Origin: Candidatus Marinacidobacterales bacterium
GTDB taxonomy: Bacteria > Acidobacteriota > Vicinamibacteria > Marinacidobacterales > SMYC01
Direction of reading: 5' to 3'
Assembly (NCBI GenBank): GCA_965224085.1
Contig: CBDCYI010000005.1
Span: 1,920,001-1,984,000, forward strand
Length of the DNA stretch: 64,000 nucleotides
The notes under the pieces were generated by a model. It ran no database searches and was not told the DNA's origin. It saw only the letters and a list, made by a program, of their open reading frames with translations. Position 1 is the stretch's first letter. The number at the start of each line of letters is the position of its first letter. The position numbers were made by a program, and so were the translations under genes. Positions 6,799 through 42,640 of the stretch are shown one piece after another.

Positions 6799-7604
6799 GG
6801 TATTGTCAAATTGAGCTGGTGACTGACAGAATGGTCCAATGAAGACCGATGCGCCAAGCTACCACGGCTATCGATTTCCACCGGAAATCATCAGCCACGC
6901 CGTCTGGCTCTACCACCGATTCTGCGTGAGCTTTCGAAACGTCGAAGAGTTGCTCGCTCAGCGAGGCATCACGGTTTCTTACGAAGCGGTCCGACTGTGG
7001 TGCATTAAGTTCGGGCCGGAATACGCTCGGCGACTGAAGCGTCGGCAGGGTCGTCTCGGTGACACATGGCACCTGGACGAGGTCTTCATAAAGATACAAG
7101 GTGAACGCCAATACCTCTGGCGCGCGGTAGACCAAGATGGTGATGTAATCGATATCCTCGTCCAGCCTCGCCGTGATCAGAAAGCCGCCAAACGATTCTT
7201 CCGCAAGCTGTTGAAAGGGCAAGGCCGTCCGCCCTGGCAGCTGGTCACCGACAAACTGAGAAGCTACAGCGCCGCTCACCGCGAGGTCATGCCGTCCGTC
7301 GTCCACGACACTGACCAGTACAGAAACAACCTAGCCGAAGTCTCGCACGAACCGACGCGACAACGGGAACGACAGATGCGGAAGTTTAAAGCTCCTGGGC
7401 AGGCGCAACGATTCTTGACCGTGCATGGACTCGTGCAAAATCTCTTTCGCGTCGGACGGCATTTGTTGCAAGCGCATCATCATCGGGAGCTACGAGACCG
7501 CGCTTTCATCGTCTGGCAGGAGGTAACCTGTGCCGTCCGATGAGAGCAAAGGAAGTCAGCTCGACGCGATAGGGTTGCTCGCTCAACGTCAACTTGACAA
7601 TACC
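6799..7604 (+). mobile_element. IS6-family element (806 bp), no matching TSD
   Basis: IRs GGTATTGTCAAATTGA and TCAACTTGACAATACC; the two flanks differ. Confidence 0.9.
6839..7543 (+). CDS. IS6 transposase
   Basis: YRFPPEII, WHLDEVF, YLWRAVDQDG, VTDKL, NNLAEVSH. Confidence 0.95.
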   Translation: MKTDAPSYHGYRFPPEIISHAVWLYHRFCVSFRNVEELLAQRGITVSYEAVRLWCIKFGPEYARRLKRRQGRLGDTWHLDEVFIKIQGERQYLWRAVDQDGDVIDILVQPRRDQKAAKRFFRKLLKGQGRPPWQLVTDKLRSYSAAHREVMPSVVHDTDQYRNNLAEVSHEPTRQRERQMRKFKAPGQAQRFLTVHGLVQNLFRVGRHLLQAHHHRELRDRAFIVWQEVTCAVR

Positions 7605-7790
7605 AGCATACTCCATGCTGCAATGTTCCTGGAGCGCTTGAACATTGATTCCTTTCGCGCTGATCTGGGAGAGTGAAGGCCCATTAGGTAGTGGGACGAA
7701 GGGTTCTTCAGTGTACGCCACATGCCCACTGGAGACTGCCGGGTGGCTTTCGATTTGACAGAGAGCAACACGTAACGCTCGCATACTCAT
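7605..7790 (-). pseudogene. Possible carbon-nitrogen hydrolase N-terminal fragment, cut by IS6
   Basis: Starts MRALRVALCQIE and ends at the IS6 right IR. Confidence 0.35.
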
Positions 7791-7918
7791 ACCATCGCCC
7801 CTTCTACACCGACCGGCCTTTGCCTGCTTCAGCTCCTGGTTGACCCACCCCTACGCGACGGGACTGCACGGAGCGACTTCCACATCGGTCGAGGGGTGCT
7901 TCCGCCATCAAGTGTTGG

Positions 7919-8222
7919 GATGGACTCCTCCGCTGACATAGACGGCATCGATGTGCCAAAGTCAGTCGAAAGAACGCATCGAAAAAGGAGGAGTTCCGAA
8001 TGAAAGATACGACGATCGCTGTGGATCTTGCAAAGAACGTCTTCGAGATTGCCATCTCGCGCGAAGCGGGGAAGGTGTCCAAGCAACTCCGTGTGAGTCG
8101 ACCCAAGTTGGTGTCGTTTTTTGCGAAACAGAGCGCTGCCACCGTGCTTCTTGAAGCCTGCGGCTCGGCTCACTTCTGGGCAAGGACGTTGCAACGGTTG
8201 GGACACGACGTCGTCCTGCTCC
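7919..8222 (+). pseudogene. IS110/IS1111-group left end and transposase N-terminus, truncated
   Basis: ATGGACTCCTCC subterminal motif; MKDTTIAVDLAKNVFEI...LEACGSAHFWAR. Cut exactly at the repeat-A end at 8223. Confidence 0.85.
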
Positions 8223-8841
8223 CGTCCTGTGCCAAAACTCGGCCCTTTTGAAATAGCCGATAAATCAAGCAGCTTAGTGTCTGTATTTACGGCCGTGCCA
8301 AGGGCCGAGCGCGAACAAACGACGAAATCATGCAGGCATGGTCCCTGCAGACCGGAGACCAATCAAGTTCGGGGCGCGCGGATGAATACATAGAAGGCAC
8401 AACTACTGCCGTGCCCGTCTGGTCAAAATACTCATGCGGCTTCCCGATGGTAGAAATTGTCGACGGTCGCCAGCCCGTTGGGCTGACCTCGAGCTACCTC
8501 TTGCATCATCCGTTTCTCGACGATTGGGACAAACAGCGCGCCCTCATCGCAACGTCTTAAGGCAGACCACGCTGTAAACCAACCCGCGGCGTCGGCCACG
8601 CTCGCTCTTGGCCTGCGCTGTGTCGGCGAACGCCATCGGCCCCGTCCTGTCCAAAAATACAAACGAACTCAAGATCAGACCCAGAATTGCCTATTTTTCA
8701 TTGGTTTCCAGCCAAGACCGGCCAGCTCCGGTCGGCCTGTGCTCCGCAAAAAAAGAAGATCGCGTACCGCTGGGTCGACTTTTTGCGGAGCACAACCGGA
8801 AGTTCGCTAATCTCATACAGCTCGAGTTTATGGAAGGGACA
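8223..8841. repeat. Cluster of nested IS481-like ends (A, E, C, B, D, G) with a serine-recombinase C-terminal fragment
   Basis: Ends at 8223, 8401, 8416, 8643, 8738-8794 and 8841. The segment 8455-8560 encodes IVDGRQPVGLTSSYLLHHP, near-identical to the C-terminus of 19615-21276. Confidence 0.8.
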
Positions 8842-30395: not shown

Positions 30396-30977
30396 ATGGC
30401 GACAGCTGCAGAAACCATTGATCAGCGGCGCTTCACGGTAGAGGAATATCACCGGATGGCAGAGATGAGGATCTTCAAACCGGACGAGCGCGTCGAGCTC
30501 ATCCGTGGCGTGGTGCGACGCATGAGCCCGAAAAACTACGCTCACGTCGTCGCAGCCACGAAACTGTACCAGTCGCTCGTGAAATCCCTCGCCGGACGTG
30601 CGAGCGTCTTCAAGGAAGACCCGCTGAAACTCGTTCGTTTAGATTCGGAACCTGAGCAGGATATCCTCGCGGTTTCCAGCCCAAATATCGAGGACTACGG
30701 AACGGAGAGGTCTAGACCTCTGCTCGTCATCGAGGTCGCGGCGTCATCGCTTCGCTACGATTTGAACGCGAAAGCTCCGCTTTATGCCGAGGCGGACGTT
30801 CCCGAATATTGGATCGTGAACCTCGTTGGCCGCGAGCTCGTGGTCTTTCGCTCTCCGGAGGAAGGCGCCTATCGAGACCGCATCACCTACCGCGCCGAAG
30901 ATCGCGTCGCGCCGGAAGCTTGGCAAGATGTCGTGATCGAGGTCGGCGAGCTCTTTCCCGCCGAAGAGCCGTCCTGA
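30396..30977 (+). CDS. Uma2-family endonuclease-fold protein
   Basis: RRFTVEEYHRM, RVELIRG, LVIEVA.SS..YD, K..LYA...VPEYWIVNL. Confidence 0.9.
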   Translation: MATAAETIDQRRFTVEEYHRMAEMRIFKPDERVELIRGVVRRMSPKNYAHVVAATKLYQSLVKSLAGRASVFKEDPLKLVRLDSEPEQDILAVSSPNIEDYGTERSRPLLVIEVAASSLRYDLNAKAPLYAEADVPEYWIVNLVGRELVVFRSPEEGAYRDRITYRAEDRVAPEAWQDVVIEVGELFPAEEPS

Positions 30978-31050
30978 AGCCTACGAGAACGTAGCCGGTC
31001 GGACTCTGGGCCAGGTACTTTCGACTGACACTCCCGGCCGAAGGCATTTT

Positions 31051-32439
31051 TCATGATATGGATTGATCGGGAACGAGGCTGAAGCCGAGTCGGGTAGCTT
31101 TGCGTCGGAGATTACTCAGGAGGCGTTGCTGGTATTGCCTTTCATAGGCGTCCTGACCGAGCTCAATGAACTCCTCTCCAGTCGCAAGCATGCGGAAGTA
31201 GATGGTCGCTATTTTACGGGCGGTAGCTGTGATGGCCTTTGGAGCACCTCGTCGCGATCGGATTCGTCGATAGAAAGCGCCGAGCGCGGTTTGGGTATTG
31301 CGGACAGCGCACGCGGCGAGGCGAAAGAGTTTTGCAGCACGACTGGAGCTCATTGGGGTTGCCCGGCGAAAGATTCGACCAGCGGACTCCTTATTATTCG
31401 GTGCGAGAGCTAGCCATGAGGTGAAGTGCTTGTCACTTTTCCACGGGCTCATGTCGCAACCGGTTTCTCCTACGAGCTGCAGAACGGCATAGCTACCTAA
31501 GCCGGGAACCCTGGTTAGGTCCACCCCCGTGAGTCCCAATAGAGACTCAGCGAGCGGAAAGCGCGGCCCGTTGCCGCTACGCGCTCGCCGTGTCCGTGGT
31601 TTCGGCTTAGGCCGAGCGTCCTGAGGCCGGGTCTCCAATTTGGACAGGCATCTCTCGATCCGCTTGTCACAGTCTTCCATTTTCTCTTGATAGAAATCGT
31701 ACAACTCCACCGACTGTTGAAGAGCGAAAACATGCTCGCTCCGATAGTTACCTTCTAAGGCTTTCGCGATCGTGGCCTCATCGTTGTGGCAACGTTCATG
31801 CCTCAGTTTTGCTAGGTCACGAGGATCTCGCTCTCCTCTCAAGATCGCTCGGATGATCGCAAGGCCGGTGACTCCGGTCACGTCGCGCAGGACGTGTTGT
31901 AGCTGGAGCCCCATTTGGTTGAGCGCTTTGTGCATATGCTGAATGTGGCGAGCCGCTGACTCCACCAGCGAGCTTCGTTGGCGGGTGTATGCCCTTAGCT
32001 CGCAAATCGCCGATTCCGGCCGAAAGGTTTTTGGGAGTAGCCCGAATGTATGCAGCTGTTGCAGCCACTCCGCATCCGACACGTCTGACTTGCGCCCAGA
32101 TACGTTTTTCACTTTGCGAGCATCGACCAGATAGACTTCAAATCCCTCGTCTTCCAACAACTCGTACAGTGAAATCCAATAAACTCCGGTCGACTCCATC
32201 GCCACCGTGCACACGCCGCACGCCTTCAGCCAATTGGCCAGCTCTCGCAGCGAGCATACAAAGCTCTGAAACGTGCGGACATGTTCGCCCTCAGGAGTGC
32301 GCCCCTTCGGGACTGCCGCCACGATTGACTCCGCTCCAATATCAATCCCTGCAGCATCTAGATTTACCGTGTCGAGCTCGTGCTCCAATTTTTTCCGTCT
32401 TGCTTGACGACTGCTTTTTGTCCTGACGCGACGTGCCAT
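31051..32439 (-). CDS. IS110 DEDD recombinase/transposase
   Basis: RuvC-like AGIDIG, VAMESTG, KSDVSDA; Tnp domain with NNKESAG serine; ITATARK. RBS AGGAG precedes ATG32439. Confidence 0.95.
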   Translation of the reverse strand: MARRVRTKSSRQARRKKLEHELDTVNLDAAGIDIGAESIVAAVPKGRTPEGEHVRTFQSFVCSLRELANWLKACGVCTVAMESTGVYWISLYELLEDEGFEVYLVDARKVKNVSGRKSDVSDAEWLQQLHTFGLLPKTFRPESAICELRAYTRQRSSLVESAARHIQHMHKALNQMGLQLQHVLRDVTGVTGLAIIRAILRGERDPRDLAKLRHERCHNDEATIAKALEGNYRSEHVFALQQSVELYDFYQEKMEDCDKRIERCLSKLETRPQDARPKPKPRTRRARSGNGPRFPLAESLLGLTGVDLTRVPGLGSYAVLQLVGETGCDMSPWKSDKHFTSWLALAPNNKESAGRIFRRATPMSSSRAAKLFRLAACAVRNTQTALGAFYRRIRSRRGAPKAITATARKIATIYFRMLATGEEFIELGQDAYERQYQQRLLSNLRRKATRLGFSLVPDQSIS

Positions 32440-32449
32440 TTCTCGCTCC

Positions 32450-32680
32450 TTTCGGCGCAACCAGGAGAGAGGGGCGATTCAAAACATTCTTTCGAACGGG
32501 GTCATGCCTCGCGACATGCCACCACGGATACTCCCGCTAACCCTCCAGACCTTGCTGTCAAACGGGCACTGAGCACCATCGTACCTTCGGCCTTGACTCC
32601 CGGCTGCACTCGATCGGAGTCTACTTCCTCCCACAGATCTCAAAGGGTCAGTCTCCGATTACCTTCGCCCGCCCGGGCGA
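32450..32680 (-). ncRNA. Candidate IS110 bridge RNA
   Basis: Position matches IS110 left-end bridge RNAs. Nested stems seen by eye (GGAGTCA/TGACCCC, GGTAC/GTATC, CCCGTT/AGCGGG). The loop contains TTGACAGCAA, identical to the flank at 32686-32695. Confidence 0.6.
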
Positions 32681-32686
32681 TGCCAT

Positions 32687-32726
32687 TGCTGTCAACTTGA
32701 GCTGGCAACGTCAACTTGACATGACG
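32687..32726 (+). mobile_element. ~40-bp collapsed IS6 (left IR fused to right IR)
   Basis: TGTCAACTTGAGCTGG matches the start of the IS6 at 6799; CAACGTCAACTTGACA matches its end. Confidence 0.7.
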
Positions 32727-32811
32727 GACGGAAGGCCGTTCGAAGTCGACATCTTCGGGCGCATCGACTCACCCGACAACATCGCCAAAACGTACCGCAT
32801 CCCGATCGCCA

Positions 32812-33291
32812 TTAGTCGTCGATCAAGTCCTTGAGCGCTTCGGCGTGCGTCTCCAAGAAAAGACGATCTTTCGGACGATTTGCTTTTGCCTTGGACGTAA
32901 CGATGTGCGTGAGCCGCGCCACCGGAATCTCGACGTCTTCGACACGGAACACACGTCGCTCGTTCCACACTTGATCGAACTCGAATCCTGCCATAACGAA
33001 CGTGAGGACGACTTCCAGACCGTCGTCGTCAGTCGCTTTGGTCAGTGCCTTTCGTTCGACGACAGCTAGCAAACGGTCGAGTGGCTTTCCCAGCGGCTCG
33101 GCACCTGCCCAGAGCTGCAGGCCCTGAGCGTCGATCGTCCGCCAAACGGTTAGCAGGTTCTCCGGGTCCGGCGGAAGGAAAAGGTTGCGGTCCTTCGTCG
33201 TGAATAGGGTCGCTCCCGACATCGCGTAGTAGTTCGCGCCAGCGACGTCGACGAGTACACATCTTGCTGGCTCACGCGAAAGTGTGCTCAT
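32812..33291 (-). pseudogene. Nucleotidyltransferase-fold protein, degenerate
   Basis: AGANYYA...TTKD.NLFL...IPVARL.HIV.SK..ANRPKD pattern. Confidence 0.5.
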
Positions 33292-33299
33292 GAGCTCAC

Positions 33300-33884
33300 G
33301 GAGTTCTTCTAACGCTGCAGAAGAGATGGTCTCGTGGCTGGCAGGCGCTCGCCTCTTATACGTGGTCGGAGGCCACTGGGCTCATTGGCTCGAACTGGGG
33401 CGGGCCGGGCGGCTCGCAAACCAGTCGCGTCACGGGGTTCACGAGCCAGGCGGGCAGAGACCCCAACAATTTCACCAACGCGACGGGGAATTTGCGCAAC
33501 GACCGGACCCACATGGTCCGGTTACAAGCCGCCGTGGAGGTACCCAAGGTCGAGATTCTTTTAGGCGCCAACTACGACCATGTCACTGGAAAACCGTACG
33601 CATCCCGCGCTCGAGTTCGTCTTCCGCAGGGGTCCCAGCAAATCTACATCGAACCGCTCGGAACCCGACGGATCGCTAATTCGGGCATTCTCGACTTGCG
33701 CGTGTCGAAGATCTTTCGTTTCGGCGAGACCGGCCGGTTCGAGATCATCGGCGATTTCTTGAACCTCACGAACGACCAGGCACCTCAGAACATCATCAGC
33801 CGCCAGTACAACAGCCCGAACTTCGAACAGCCGAGCTTCTGGCCGACACCGCGCCGCATCATGATCGGCTTGAAGTTCGCTTAG
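33300..33884 (+). pseudogene. TonB-dependent receptor C-terminal fragment
   Basis: NDRTHMVRL...LDLRVSKIF...DFLNLTN...PRRIMIGLKF; no N-terminus. Confidence 0.6.
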
Positions 33885-42540: not shown

Positions 42541-42640
42541 CTAGTCCCATGGGTCTTTGATTACTATACAAAGTTAGACTTTTAGCCAGCCCATAAGATT
42601 CATAAGAGTCATACACTTAGAATGGTACTGTCAAGTTGGC
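42541..42640. repeat. Second copy of the 2116 MITE left part, abutting an IS6-type end
   Basis: ~85-bp match to 2116-2201, followed by GGTACTGTCAAGTTG. Confidence 0.7.

What the first reader, a model, noticed from the sequence alone, without database searches (positions are those of the whole stretch)
31014..32726. IS110 whose candidate bridge RNA appears programmed against IS6 terminal inverted repeats
Seen in sequence: the ~250-nt non-coding end upstream of an intact IS110 recombinase has stems closing a loop with TTGACAGCAA (plus-strand 32552-32561). The same 10-mer is at the left junction (32686-32695). GGTGCT, the complement of the right half of the inferred target, is also present at 32572-32577. 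The flank is an IS6 IR missing its terminal GG, and GGT(ACT) reappears at 31014 on the other side. Excision gives GGTGCTGTCAACTTGAGCTGG, close to the IS6 end at 6799 (GGTATTGTCAAATTGAGCTGG). Established: IS110 elements use bridge RNAs with target and donor guides, and IS4321/IS5075 target Tn21 IRs. Inference: this IS110 is an RNA-guided parasite or inactivator of IS6 ends. Caveat: the TGACA and GGTGCT segments may be clade-conserved scaffold rather than guides, and I could not assign the donor loop firmly (candidates CGAAGGTA or TCGAAAG versus right-end GTCGAAAGTA).
Basis: partly seen in the sequence, partly recalled or inferred. Interest (0 to 1): 0.8.

Follow-up and report, generated by a model that had tools for sequence, protein, structure and literature searches.

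The report
Bridge-RNA IS110 that targets IS6 ends
This is an intact IS110-family insertion sequence whose guide RNA matches the outermost bases of IS6-family insertion sequences, so it and a 66-bp miniature derivative insert again and again into the ends of those other mobile elements.

Summary
On the minus strand lies a 1671-bp IS110-family element (31018-32688) flanked by a duplicated AG core. All 30 left junctions in the genome read TTGAC-AG-element, and the right junctions read element-AG-TACC. Of the 30 junctions, 18 abut an IS6 transposase gene; others lie in IS6-type MITEs or solo ends.

In homologues (39-59% protein identity) the scaffold GGTGC...CCCG-[6 nt + AG] is conserved. The 6 nt vary and reappear 121-142 nt upstream at each element's own left junction (82 of 102 identities against 31.5 in shuffles; 0 of 20000 shuffles reach it). 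So UUUGACAG (32562-32555) is a true target guide. GGUAC (32585-32581) is the better second guide, and UCGAAAG (32495-32489) is a donor guide.

Twenty copies of a miniature element (19 are 66 bp, with neither gene nor guide loops) occupy the same site. Such miniatures occur in eight of the 40 related genomes searched. IS6 ends with T at position 5 are never occupied.

This is a new member of a known kind. Whether insertion disables IS6, and whether the T variant is an escape mutation, remain untested.

The parts
31018..32688 (-). IS110-family element, 1671 bp counted with one copy of the 2-nt core
   Evidence: Boundaries come from comparing copies with different flanks and from empty sites. The length was computed. 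Contigs of public DNA runs break at 31014 and at 32695-32705.
32689..32690 (-). Left copy of the core dinucleotide (AG on the minus strand, CT on the plus strand)
   Evidence: TTGAC-AG-CAATGG at 30 of 30 left junctions.
31018..31019 (-). Right copy of the core dinucleotide
   Evidence: TCGAA-AG-TACC follows 12 full-type and 22 mini-type right ends.
31014..31017 (+). GGTA, the outermost four bases of the interrupted IS6-type repeat (right target TACC in element orientation)
   Evidence: Constant next to every right end, then unrelated DNA.
32691..32705 (+). Rest of an IS6 left-repeat-like sequence (GTCAACTTGAGCTGG), which is the left target
   Evidence: Compared with 6799-6819.
32706..32721 (+). 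IS6 right-repeat-like sequence abutting the former. Together they form a relic without a transposase gene.
   Evidence: Matches 7583-7598. No IS6 transposase hit in the 1.1-kb flank.
31051..32439 (-). IS110-family DEDD/Tnp recombinase gene, 462 aa, uninterrupted
32440..32688 (-). Left non-coding end (249 nt) that encodes the bridge RNA
   Evidence: Contigs from RNA libraries cover 32315-32622.
32547..32593 (-). Target-binding loop. The closing stem is 32593-32589 with 32551-32547.
   Evidence: RNAalifold and pair counts: closing stem 96.7% paired, with 2 pairs changed on both sides.
32555..32562 (-). Target guide UUUGACAG, identical to left flank plus core. The next bases, CAA (32554-32552), match the first bases of the element.
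32581..32587 (-). 5' strand of the target loop, AAGGUAC. Its GGUAC is complementary to G-TACC (core G plus right target).
   Evidence: Register shared with L036, L041 and L054. Permutation test: 31 of 78 pairs against 18.1.
32572..32577 (-).
   Evidence: TGGTGC in 17 of 18 aligned sequences and TGGTAC in L048, although their targets differ.
32489..32495 (-). Donor guide UCGAAAG, identical to the right end plus core (TCGAA-AG)
   Evidence: Exact 7-of-7 match to the element's own right end in 14 of 18 homologues.
32500..32520 (-). Inner hairpin of the donor-binding loop
   Evidence: All 6 of its pairs change on both sides among homologues. A variant in one DNA run changes C-G to U-A and U-G to U-A.
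31020..31050 (-). Right non-coding end (31 nt)
6799..7605 (+). Complete IS6-family element of the targeted family. Both ends are of the GGTATTGTCAA (T) type and unoccupied.
42624..42634 (+). Unoccupied cognate site GGTACTGTCAA, a solo IS6-type end without a transposase gene beside it

Best explanation
This is an active or recently active IS110-group insertion sequence that moves by bridge-RNA-guided recombination.

Mechanism. The 249-nt left end encodes an RNA with two internal loops. One loop carries UUUGACAG and GGUAC, which together read the sequence TTTGAC-AG-TACC. On the other strand that is GGTA-CT-GTCAAA, the outermost 12 bases of IS6-family terminal repeats. The other loop carries UCGAAAG, which reads the element's own right end. 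The recombinase exchanges strands at the 2-nt core (AG, or CT on the other strand). The element therefore lands six bases inside an IS6 end, always in one orientation, with its left end against the IS6 body.

Miniature. A 66-bp derivative keeps only about 43 nt of the left end and about 23 nt of the right end. It has neither the gene nor the guide loops. It is most likely moved in trans by the same recombinase and RNA.

Why IS6 ends. They serve as a repeated, harmless and horizontally travelling landing site. Cutting the terminal GGTACT off the rest of the repeat probably disables that IS6 end as a side effect.

Shown: the anatomy, site specificity, guide-target and guide-donor covariation, and the RNA structure. 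Inferred: catalysis, circle formation, trans-mobilisation, and the effect on IS6.
For: Site specificity.
- 30 of 30 left junctions in the genome read TTGAC-AG-CAATGG. Of these, 18 of 30 lie 36 nt from an IS6 transposase gene on the opposite strand. Two lie in 116-bp IS6-type MITEs.
- Right flanks beyond TACC are unrelated to one another.
- In seven other genomes, 10 of 10 left junctions read the same, and 11 of 13 right junctions read AG-TACC.

Independent insertions.
- Nine IS6 copies that are identical at all 37 informative columns are 3 empty, 5 with a miniature (of at least 2 variants) and 1 with the full element.

Guide covariation.
- 20 of 32 sequences examined carry the scaffold. In 13 of those 20 the variable 8-mer recurs with at most 1 mismatch 121-142 nt upstream, at the junction.
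- Permutation test: 82 of 102 identities against a shuffled mean of 31.5; 0 of 20000 shuffles reach it.
- The nearest relatives, in G010 and G018 (66-74% nucleotide identity over short stretches), have other guides that match their own flanks at 7 of 8 positions.
- For three multi-copy families the ends were mapped without using the guides, and the guides still match the flanks.
- Donor guide: exact 7-of-7 match to the element's own right end in 14 of 18.
- Second target guide: 31 of 78 Watson-Crick pairs against 18.1; 16 of 20000 shuffles reach it.

RNA structure.
- 92.5% of cells pair, against 78.6% in shuffles (0 of 500) and 33-46% when partners are slid. 11 of 20 pairs change on both sides.

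Protein and published mechanism.
- Family assignment.
- The published mechanism was read in passages of PMC11208160 and PMC11208158. These include the finding that a 22-bp donor suffices for IS621 when the RNA is supplied in trans.
Against: - Nothing was tested at the bench.
- The fourth guide, expected to read the element's left end, could not be assigned.
- No sigma-70-type promoter was found at the integrated junction or at the computed circle junction.
- No circle-type or tandem junction is present in the assembly. No joint was seen in the four public runs laid, all of which are contigs.
- Expression rests only on contigs from two RNA libraries of one study. These may contain DNA.
- For 9 of 30 sites I could not show that the flank belongs to an IS6 element.
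- Many cognate GGTACTGTCAA sites stay empty: 9 in this genome and 63 in G002. Activity is therefore low, or something else also limits insertion.
- Rfam has no matching family, and no solved structure was found by sequence.
- The order of long and short guides in the loops differs from IS621, unless the core is read as CT on the opposite strand.
Confidence: 0.85

Rival explanations
1. Hitch-hiking. One ancestral insertion into an IS6 end was then copied around the genome by IS6 transposition. The shared flank would then reflect common descent, not targeting.
For: 14 of 29 copies of one IS6 family carry the miniature, and these IS6 copies are 96-98% identical to the window copy. Three genomes share one right flank next to a miniature (L089, L091, L093). 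That case does look like inheritance or co-transfer.
Against: At least ten different left-flank types carry the element, including MITEs and solo ends without a transposase gene. IS6 copies with the same haplotype are empty, carry different miniature variants, or carry the full element. Homologues with other guides sit in other sites that match those guides. Splitting the terminal 6 bp from the repeat should hinder IS6 transposition; this last point rests on established knowledge of terminal repeats and was not tested.
Confidence: 0.07
2. Scaffold coincidence. TTGACA and its neighbours would be conserved RNA scaffold, and the target would be chosen by the protein or by DNA structure.
For: These parts are GGTGCT, the AG at the end of the guide, and the following C(A/G)UGG, all conserved across homologues.
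Against: The six bases before AG take 18 different forms among the 20 sequences that carry the scaffold. They track each element's own left flank.
Confidence: 0.03
3. Control system. The element, and above all the miniature, is kept because it silences IS6 ends to the benefit of the host. It would be a domesticated anti-IS device rather than a selfish element using a safe site.
For: 17 of the 24 left ends of the main IS6 family that carry the C-type target are occupied. Unoccupied T-variant ends are common only in genomes that hold the element.
Against: The full element is identical in genomes of different families, which suggests horizontal spread typical of a selfish element. Its relatives target REP-like repeats and other sites, so using repeats as safe sites is the family habit. 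No host-side selection was shown.
Confidence: 0.05

Closest known systems
IS621 and the IS110 group with bridge RNAs (Durrant et al. 2024, PMC11208160; Hiraizumi et al. 2024, PMC11208158; passages read)
   Same: DEDD plus Tnp recombinase. A long left end that encodes an RNA with two internal loops. Guides that include a 2-nt core. One guide identical to flank plus core and one complementary to core plus the other flank. Two bases next to a target guide that match the donor, like a handshake guide.
   Different: Protein identity is too low for phmmer against PDB chains, and the recombinase is 462 aa against 326 aa. The core reads AG on the coding strand. The long contiguous guides lie on the 3' strands of both loops, whereas IS621 has them on the 5' strands. 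The layouts agree only if the core is read as CT on the non-coding strand, in which case the gene is inverted relative to the core. The target is another IS's terminal repeat, not a REP sequence.
IS4321/IS5075 (IS1111 group), which target the 38-bp terminal repeats of Tn21-family transposons (Partridge and Hall 2003; seen only as a reference and short mentions in PMC11187229 and PMC11208160)
   Same: A DEDD-family IS that inserts in one orientation at a fixed place inside the terminal repeat of another transposon family.
   Different: They belong to the IS1111 group, with the guide RNA in the right end and sub-terminal repeats. Their target family is Tn3/Tn21. Here the element is of the IS110 group, with the RNA in the left end, and it targets IS6-family ends.
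MITEPpu9, associated with ISPpu9 (PMC12288879; discussion passage read)
   Same: A short non-autonomous element with the ends of an IS110-family IS, thought to be moved in trans.
   Different: MITEPpu9 carries an sRNA gene (ssr9). The element here is only 66 bp, has no guide loops, and sits in IS6 ends across nine genomes, counting this one.
REP-targeting IS110 elements (ISPpu9, ISPpu10, IS621; abstracts, reference list)
   Same: Use of a short, repeated, harmless sequence as the landing site. The homologues found here in Acidobacteriaceae do the same at TGTCATCCTGAG.
   Different: The repeat used here is itself the working end of a mobile element.

Membership tests
IS110 family, IS110 group | DEDD (RuvC-like) domain plus Tnp domain recombinase | tested here: met
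   PF01548 E 7e-25 (residues 30-176). PF02371 E 2.3e-8 (308-390). NF033542 E 1.4e-76, covering 2-342 of 343 profile positions. Individual catalytic residues were not checked.
IS110 family, IS110 group | No terminal inverted repeats; insertion flanked only by a duplicated 2-nt core | tested here: met
   AG lies on both sides at all junctions. The ends CAATGG... and ...TCGAAAG are not inverted copies of each other.
IS110 family, IS110 group | Left non-coding end much longer than the right one and holding the guide RNA | tested here: met
   The left end is 249 nt and the right end 31 nt. The criterion is from PMC11208160, section 12.
IS110 family, IS110 group | Bridge RNA with a target-binding loop whose two guides match the target | tested here: met
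IS110 family, IS110 group | Donor-binding loop whose two guides match both element ends | tested here: inconclusive
   The guide for the right end is clear, matching exactly in 14 of 18. The guide for the left end was not found.
IS110 family, IS110 group | Circular intermediate with a promoter formed at the junction | tested here: inconclusive
   No sigma-70-type promoter at the computed junction. No junction in the assembly or in contigs of four runs. Raw reads were not available.
Rfam RNA families | Match to a curated covariance model | tested here: not met
   0 matches at E up to 1 in 30500-33300.
IS6 family (the targeted element) | IS6-type DDE transposase | tested here: met
   NF033587 E 4.2e-63 and PF13610 E 1.1e-37.
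IS6 family (the targeted element) | About 0.8 kb long with short terminal inverted repeats that start with GG | tested here: met
   The element is 807 bp, with GGTATTGTCAA at both ends of the window copy. That IS6 repeats start with GG is recalled.
IS6 family (the targeted element) | 8-bp target duplication | tested here: not met
   The window copy has different 8-mers on its two sides. This is common after cointegrate events (recalled), so it carries little weight.
MITE-like non-autonomous derivative | Short, many copies, ends of a full element, no gene, bounded like the full element | tested here: met
   19 copies of 66 bp plus one deleted variant. They have the same cores and the same site. 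The hits are 84-88% identical to the full element over a stretch that spans the flank and the first 41 nt of the left end. Mobility in trans was not tested.

The most novel reading that the evidence does not exclude
Two insertion-sequence families are in an arms race. The RNA-guided IS110, and above all its 66-bp gene-less and guide-less miniature, spreads through IS6 ends across genomes. IS6 copies escape by a single C-to-T change at position 5 of their terminal repeat. That change alters the core dinucleotide where strands are exchanged.

The evidence so far:
- No junction shows an AA core among 30 left junctions and 34 right ends next to TACC.
- In this genome, 40 T-type ends are empty.
- In the nine genomes with occupied sites, empty ends are 252 T-type against 224 C-type. 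In the seven genomes with such ends but no occupied site, they are 7 T-type against 51 C-type.
Probability: 0.3. Interest if true: 0.75.

Novelty: new member of a known kind. Interest (0 to 1): 0.6.

Why it matters
- **A clean natural example.** It shows a bridge-RNA element using the working end of another mobile element as its address. The guide, core and donor are all readable from sequence, and many independent insertions confirm them.
- **The natural minimal donor.** The 66-bp miniature shows how little DNA is needed in nature: about 43 nt of one end and about 23 nt of the other. This agrees with the 22-bp donor reported for IS621.
- **Guide layout.** It documents a clade whose guide layout, or whose gene orientation relative to the core, differs from IS621.
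- **A possible limit on IS6 spread.** IS6-family elements are important movers of genes in many bacteria. A natural RNA-guided element that splits their ends, and a one-base variant that seems to avoid it, give a testable model of conflict between transposons.

Tried and rejected
- **Rfam.** A scan of 30500-33300 at E up to 1 found nothing.
- **PDB.** phmmer of the recombinase against PDB chains found nothing at E up to 0.01, so no residue-level comparison with IS621 was made.
- **Promoters and terminators.** The scan of 30900-32850 found 0 of each. My own hexamer scan of the computed circle junction and of the integrated junction found nothing at 8 of 12 or better.
- **Circle or tandem junctions.** A search of the assembly found 0.
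- **Public runs.** Two RNA-library and two DNA runs were laid, all as contigs. There were no joints, so neither a circle nor an empty site was seen. The cover of 32315-32622 and 31014-31614 by RNA-library contigs is only a weak hint of transcription.
- **The fourth guide.** I tried to assign the guide that should read the element's left end, first by a fixed register and then by a position-by-position scan of 17 homologues. There was no clear signal.
- **GGTGCT as a right target guide.** Rejected, because it is conserved in homologues with other targets.
- **The single-sequence fold.** z = -1.9, which is not convincing on its own. The comparative structure was used instead.
- **A relative in G010 as parent of the miniature.** Rejected, because its left end is unlike the miniature.
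- **Protein search beside the junctions.** The IS6 transposase search found nothing at 12 of 30 sites. ORF inspection of eight of these flanks did not show IS6 genes.
- **Literature.** One search used the terms IS110, IS6, terminal inverted repeat, target site and bridge RNA. One search used IS110, miniature, non-autonomous and bridge RNA. One search used IS110 family, IS6 family, inverted repeat and inserted into. A 'find' in 10.64898/2026.08.14.744561 was also run. None showed a paper describing an IS110 element that targets IS6 ends. I judged this from titles, abstract starts and the passages returned.
- **What I could not see.** Supplements are closed. Supplementary Data 2 of PMC11208160, which holds natural target motifs per guide, may already contain this target.
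Full report
**What is there**

The minus strand of 31051-32439 encodes an uninterrupted 462-aa protein. It has the two IS110 domains: PF01548 (E 7e-25) and PF02371 (E 2.3e-8). It also makes a full-length match to NCBIfam NF033542, 'IS110 family RNA-guided transposase' (E 1.4e-76). Upstream lie 249 non-coding bases and downstream 31.

Shuffles expect 0.10 matches. The element at 6799-7605 is an IS6-family IS. It is 807 bp long, its transposase matches NF033587 at E 4.2e-63, and both of its ends read GGTATTGTCAA.

**True ends and target**

The window's genome (12 contigs, 6.87 Mb) holds seven near-full copies and several fragments, all 99-100% identical to the window copy. In element orientation, every copy shares the left flank ...AAnTTGAC-AG. 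Every copy ends ...GTCGAA-AG-TACC, and unrelated DNA follows.

Unoccupied sites in the genome read ...TTGACAGTACC or ...TTGACAATACC. The element is therefore 1671 bp (31018-32688, counted with one core). It is flanked by a duplicated AG, at 32690-32689 and at 31019-31018. It sits in TTGAC-AG-TACC, which on the IS6 strand is the terminus GGTA-CT-GTCAA.

That led to an inferred target (GGTGCT...) which is not what the empty sites show. Contigs of public DNA runs break at 31014 and at 32695-32705, just where the shared sequence stops.

**Census of insertions**

A scan of the genome finds 30 left junctions of the form TTGACAG followed by the element's first bases. Ten are of the full type (one truncated) and 20 are of a miniature type. 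Nineteen of the miniatures are 66 bp, counted with one core.
- 18 of 30 lie 36 nt from an IS6 transposase gene on the opposite strand.
- 2 lie at the end of 116-bp MITEs with IS6-type repeats.
- The window copy lies in a relic made of an IS6 left-repeat-like stretch (32689-32705) and a right-repeat-like stretch (32706-32721).
- For the remaining nine I could not show an IS6 origin.

TACC follows 12 full-type and 22 miniature-type right ends.

I compared 29 copies of the main IS6 family. These were chosen from the 39 BLAST rows; the ten dropped rows were fragments or about 83% identical. Their left ends are:
- 7 empty with C at position 5;
- 3 empty with T at position 5;
- 14 with the miniature;
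- 2 with the full element;
- 3 rearranged.

Nine copies that are identical at all 37 informative columns are 3 empty, 5 with a miniature (of at least two variants) and 1 with the full element. That pattern argues for repeated independent insertion rather than copying of a single composite.

**Is the RNA match a guide or scaffold?**

A search of one genome per species gave 53 loci that encode relatives, with best-segment identity of 39-59% apart from one 100% identical fragment. I examined 31 of them plus the window copy. I took one locus per multi-copy set and left out fragments.

Twenty of the 32 carry the motif GGTGC-loop-CCCG-[6 nt + AG]-C(A/G)TGG. The six bases vary, with 18 forms among the 20. 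In 13 of the 20, the 8-mer recurs with at most 1 mismatch 121-142 nt upstream, directly before the aligned start of the element.

For 17 non-redundant sequences, the six variable guide bases match their own left flank at 82 of 102 positions. Re-pairing guides and flanks at random gives a mean of 31.5, and 0 of 20000 shuffles reach 82. One caveat applies. For single-copy loci I placed the junction with the help of the match itself. However, in three multi-copy families (this one, L041-L046 and L048-L053) the ends were mapped by copy comparison alone, and the guide still matches.

The closest relatives, found in genomes G010 and G018 of the same bacterial family (66-74% nucleotide identity over short stretches), carry the guides TAACTAAG and TAAGTTAG. 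Each matches its own left flank at 7 of 8 positions, 135 and 137 nt upstream.

So UUUGACAG (32562-32555) is a target guide. It matches the main IS6 left repeat at 8 of 8 positions and the window flank at 7 of 8.

The two bases after the guide match the first two bases of each element. This gives 29 of 34 against 19.2 in shuffles, and 2 of 20000 shuffles reach it. It also resembles the handshake guide described for IS621.

**Other guides**

The 5' strand of the same loop is AAGGUAC (32587-32581). Its GGUAC is complementary to G-TACC. In the same register, L036, L041 and L054 pair with their own right flanks or with the consensus of their REP-like target. Over 13 homologues the six bases give 31 of 78 Watson-Crick pairs against 18.1 in shuffles, and 16 of 20000 shuffles reach 31.

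In the second loop, UCGAAAG (32495-32489) equals the element's right end plus core. The aligned 7-mer matches the element's own right end exactly in 14 of 18 sequences. This test is partly circular, because the right end was located by that match. In the multi-copy families, however, it coincides with the mapped end.

The guide expected for the left end of the element could not be found.

**RNA structure**

RNAalifold was run on 18 sequences. It predicts a closing stem and an inner hairpin for each loop, and 11 of the 20 pairs keep pairing through changes on both sides. Counted on the same alignment:
- 92.5% of cells pair, against 78.6% in shuffles (0 of 500 reach it) and 33-46% when partners are slid;
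- the covariation score is 0.448 against 0.197.

The structure was derived from this alignment, which favours it. A variant contig in one DNA run changes C-G to U-A and U-G to U-A in the inner hairpin of the donor loop (32507-32513).

**Relation to IS621**

In IS621 the long guide that equals flank plus core lies on the 5' strand of each loop. The short complementary guide lies on the 3' strand and is followed by the handshake bases. Here the long guides lie on the 3' strands.

If the core is read as CT on the IS6 strand (GGTA-CT-GTCAAA), the layout agrees with IS621. GGUAC becomes the left guide on the 5' strand. UUUGACAG becomes a long right guide on the 3' strand. The following CA becomes the handshake guide for the donor. 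In that reading the recombinase gene lies on the opposite strand relative to the core, compared with IS621.

I cannot decide between the two readings. Published work states that IS110 subfamilies have diverse RNA structures.

**The miniature**

The miniature hits are 84-88% identical to the window sequence over a stretch of about 60 nt. That stretch spans the flank and the first 41 nt of the left end. Its last 11 nt match the right end at 10 positions. It has the same cores and the same site, but no gene and no guide loops.

In this genome it sits in at least four different flank types. It also occurs in G002, G003, G010, G012, G016, G021, G025 and G033, eight of the 40 other genomes searched. 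In the loci I read, it always lies at ...TTGAC-AG...AG-TACC (TATC in one case).

IS621 works with a 22-bp donor when the RNA is supplied in trans. A MITE-like partner is also known for ISPpu9. Movement in trans is therefore plausible, but it is not shown here.

**Spread**

G021, a genome of another family in the same order, holds six full copies listed at 100% identity. G002 and G003 hold fragments at 100%. One public record with a 100% identical fragment is titled as a Candidatus Marinacidobacterales MAG. Contigs of two sponge metatranscriptome libraries cover parts of the element.

**The T variant**

No junction carries an AA core, among 30 left junctions and 34 right ends next to TACC. In this genome 40 ends of the T type (CAANTTGACAATACC) and 9 of the C type are empty, while 23 junctions match the occupied pattern.

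Across 41 genomes, 16 have such ends:
- In the nine genomes with occupied sites, empty ends are 224 C-type and 252 T-type.
- In the seven genomes without occupied sites, they are 51 C-type and 7 T-type.

The genomes are kin and the IS6 subfamilies differ, so this is only suggestive.

**Verdict**

This is a well-supported natural case of bridge-RNA targeting of another IS family's ends. The guide assignments and ends needed correcting. It is a new member of a known kind. The nearest precedents are IS4321/IS5075 on Tn21-family repeats, the REP-targeting IS110 elements, and MITEPpu9. My searches found no description of an IS110 element aimed at IS6 ends. Supplements were closed.

Noticed in passing
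window 7890-8251 (plus strand); 11 copies in the genome: This is a second, unrelated IS110-like element. A repeated left end is followed by an ORF that starts MKDTTIAVDLAK, and the window copy is cut to 83 aa. It lies about 360 bp from the IS6 at 6799-7605. Several copies share the left flank ...GGTGCTTCCGCCATCAAGTGATGGG, so it too may be site-specific. It contains the 11-mer TCAGTCGAAAG, which equals the right end of the studied element. This may be chance: about 3 such matches are expected per genome, here multiplied by the repeat. I did not run Pfam on it.
   Followed up: partly
L035 (about 2860-2880) and L103 (about 2150-2200): In two homologues, a right end is followed directly by core and left end of another copy. 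These are natural tandem, circle-like junctions.
   Followed up: no
Genomes G010, G012 and G016, for example G012:C1:95157-95276: Pairs of IS6-type ends lie in inverted orientation only about 105 bp apart. This points to a family of roughly 120-bp IS6-derived MITEs that is common in these genomes. Two of the insertions in G000 sit in 116-bp elements of this kind.
   Followed up: partly
L041-L057 (Acidobacteriaceae MAGs): Homologous IS110 elements insert after TGTCATCCTGAG. This looks like a REP-like repeat (...GAGCGCAGCGAAGG...). Their guides read AUCCUGAG or UUUCUGAG.
   Followed up: partly
G000:C5:1101083-1104450: Two IS6 copies in inverted orientation, about 1.8 kb apart, each lack their first 45 bp. 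Each is joined directly to the right-end part of a miniature. This looks like a deletion product or a composite structure.
   Followed up: no
window 30396-30977 and 32812-33291: The insertion lies between a Uma2-family gene (PF05685, E 2.1e-28) and a 159-aa ORF without a Pfam match. Neither gene is interrupted.
   Followed up: no
window 42624-42634: An empty cognate target, GGTACTGTCAA, lies 10 kb from the element. It belongs to a solo IS6-type end with no transposase gene next to it.
   Followed up: partly
L089, L091 and L093 (G016, G012, G033): In three genomes, the same right flank (CAGGTGCGTGGC...) follows a miniature. This suggests that the locus is part of a larger shared or transferred segment.
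   Followed up: no
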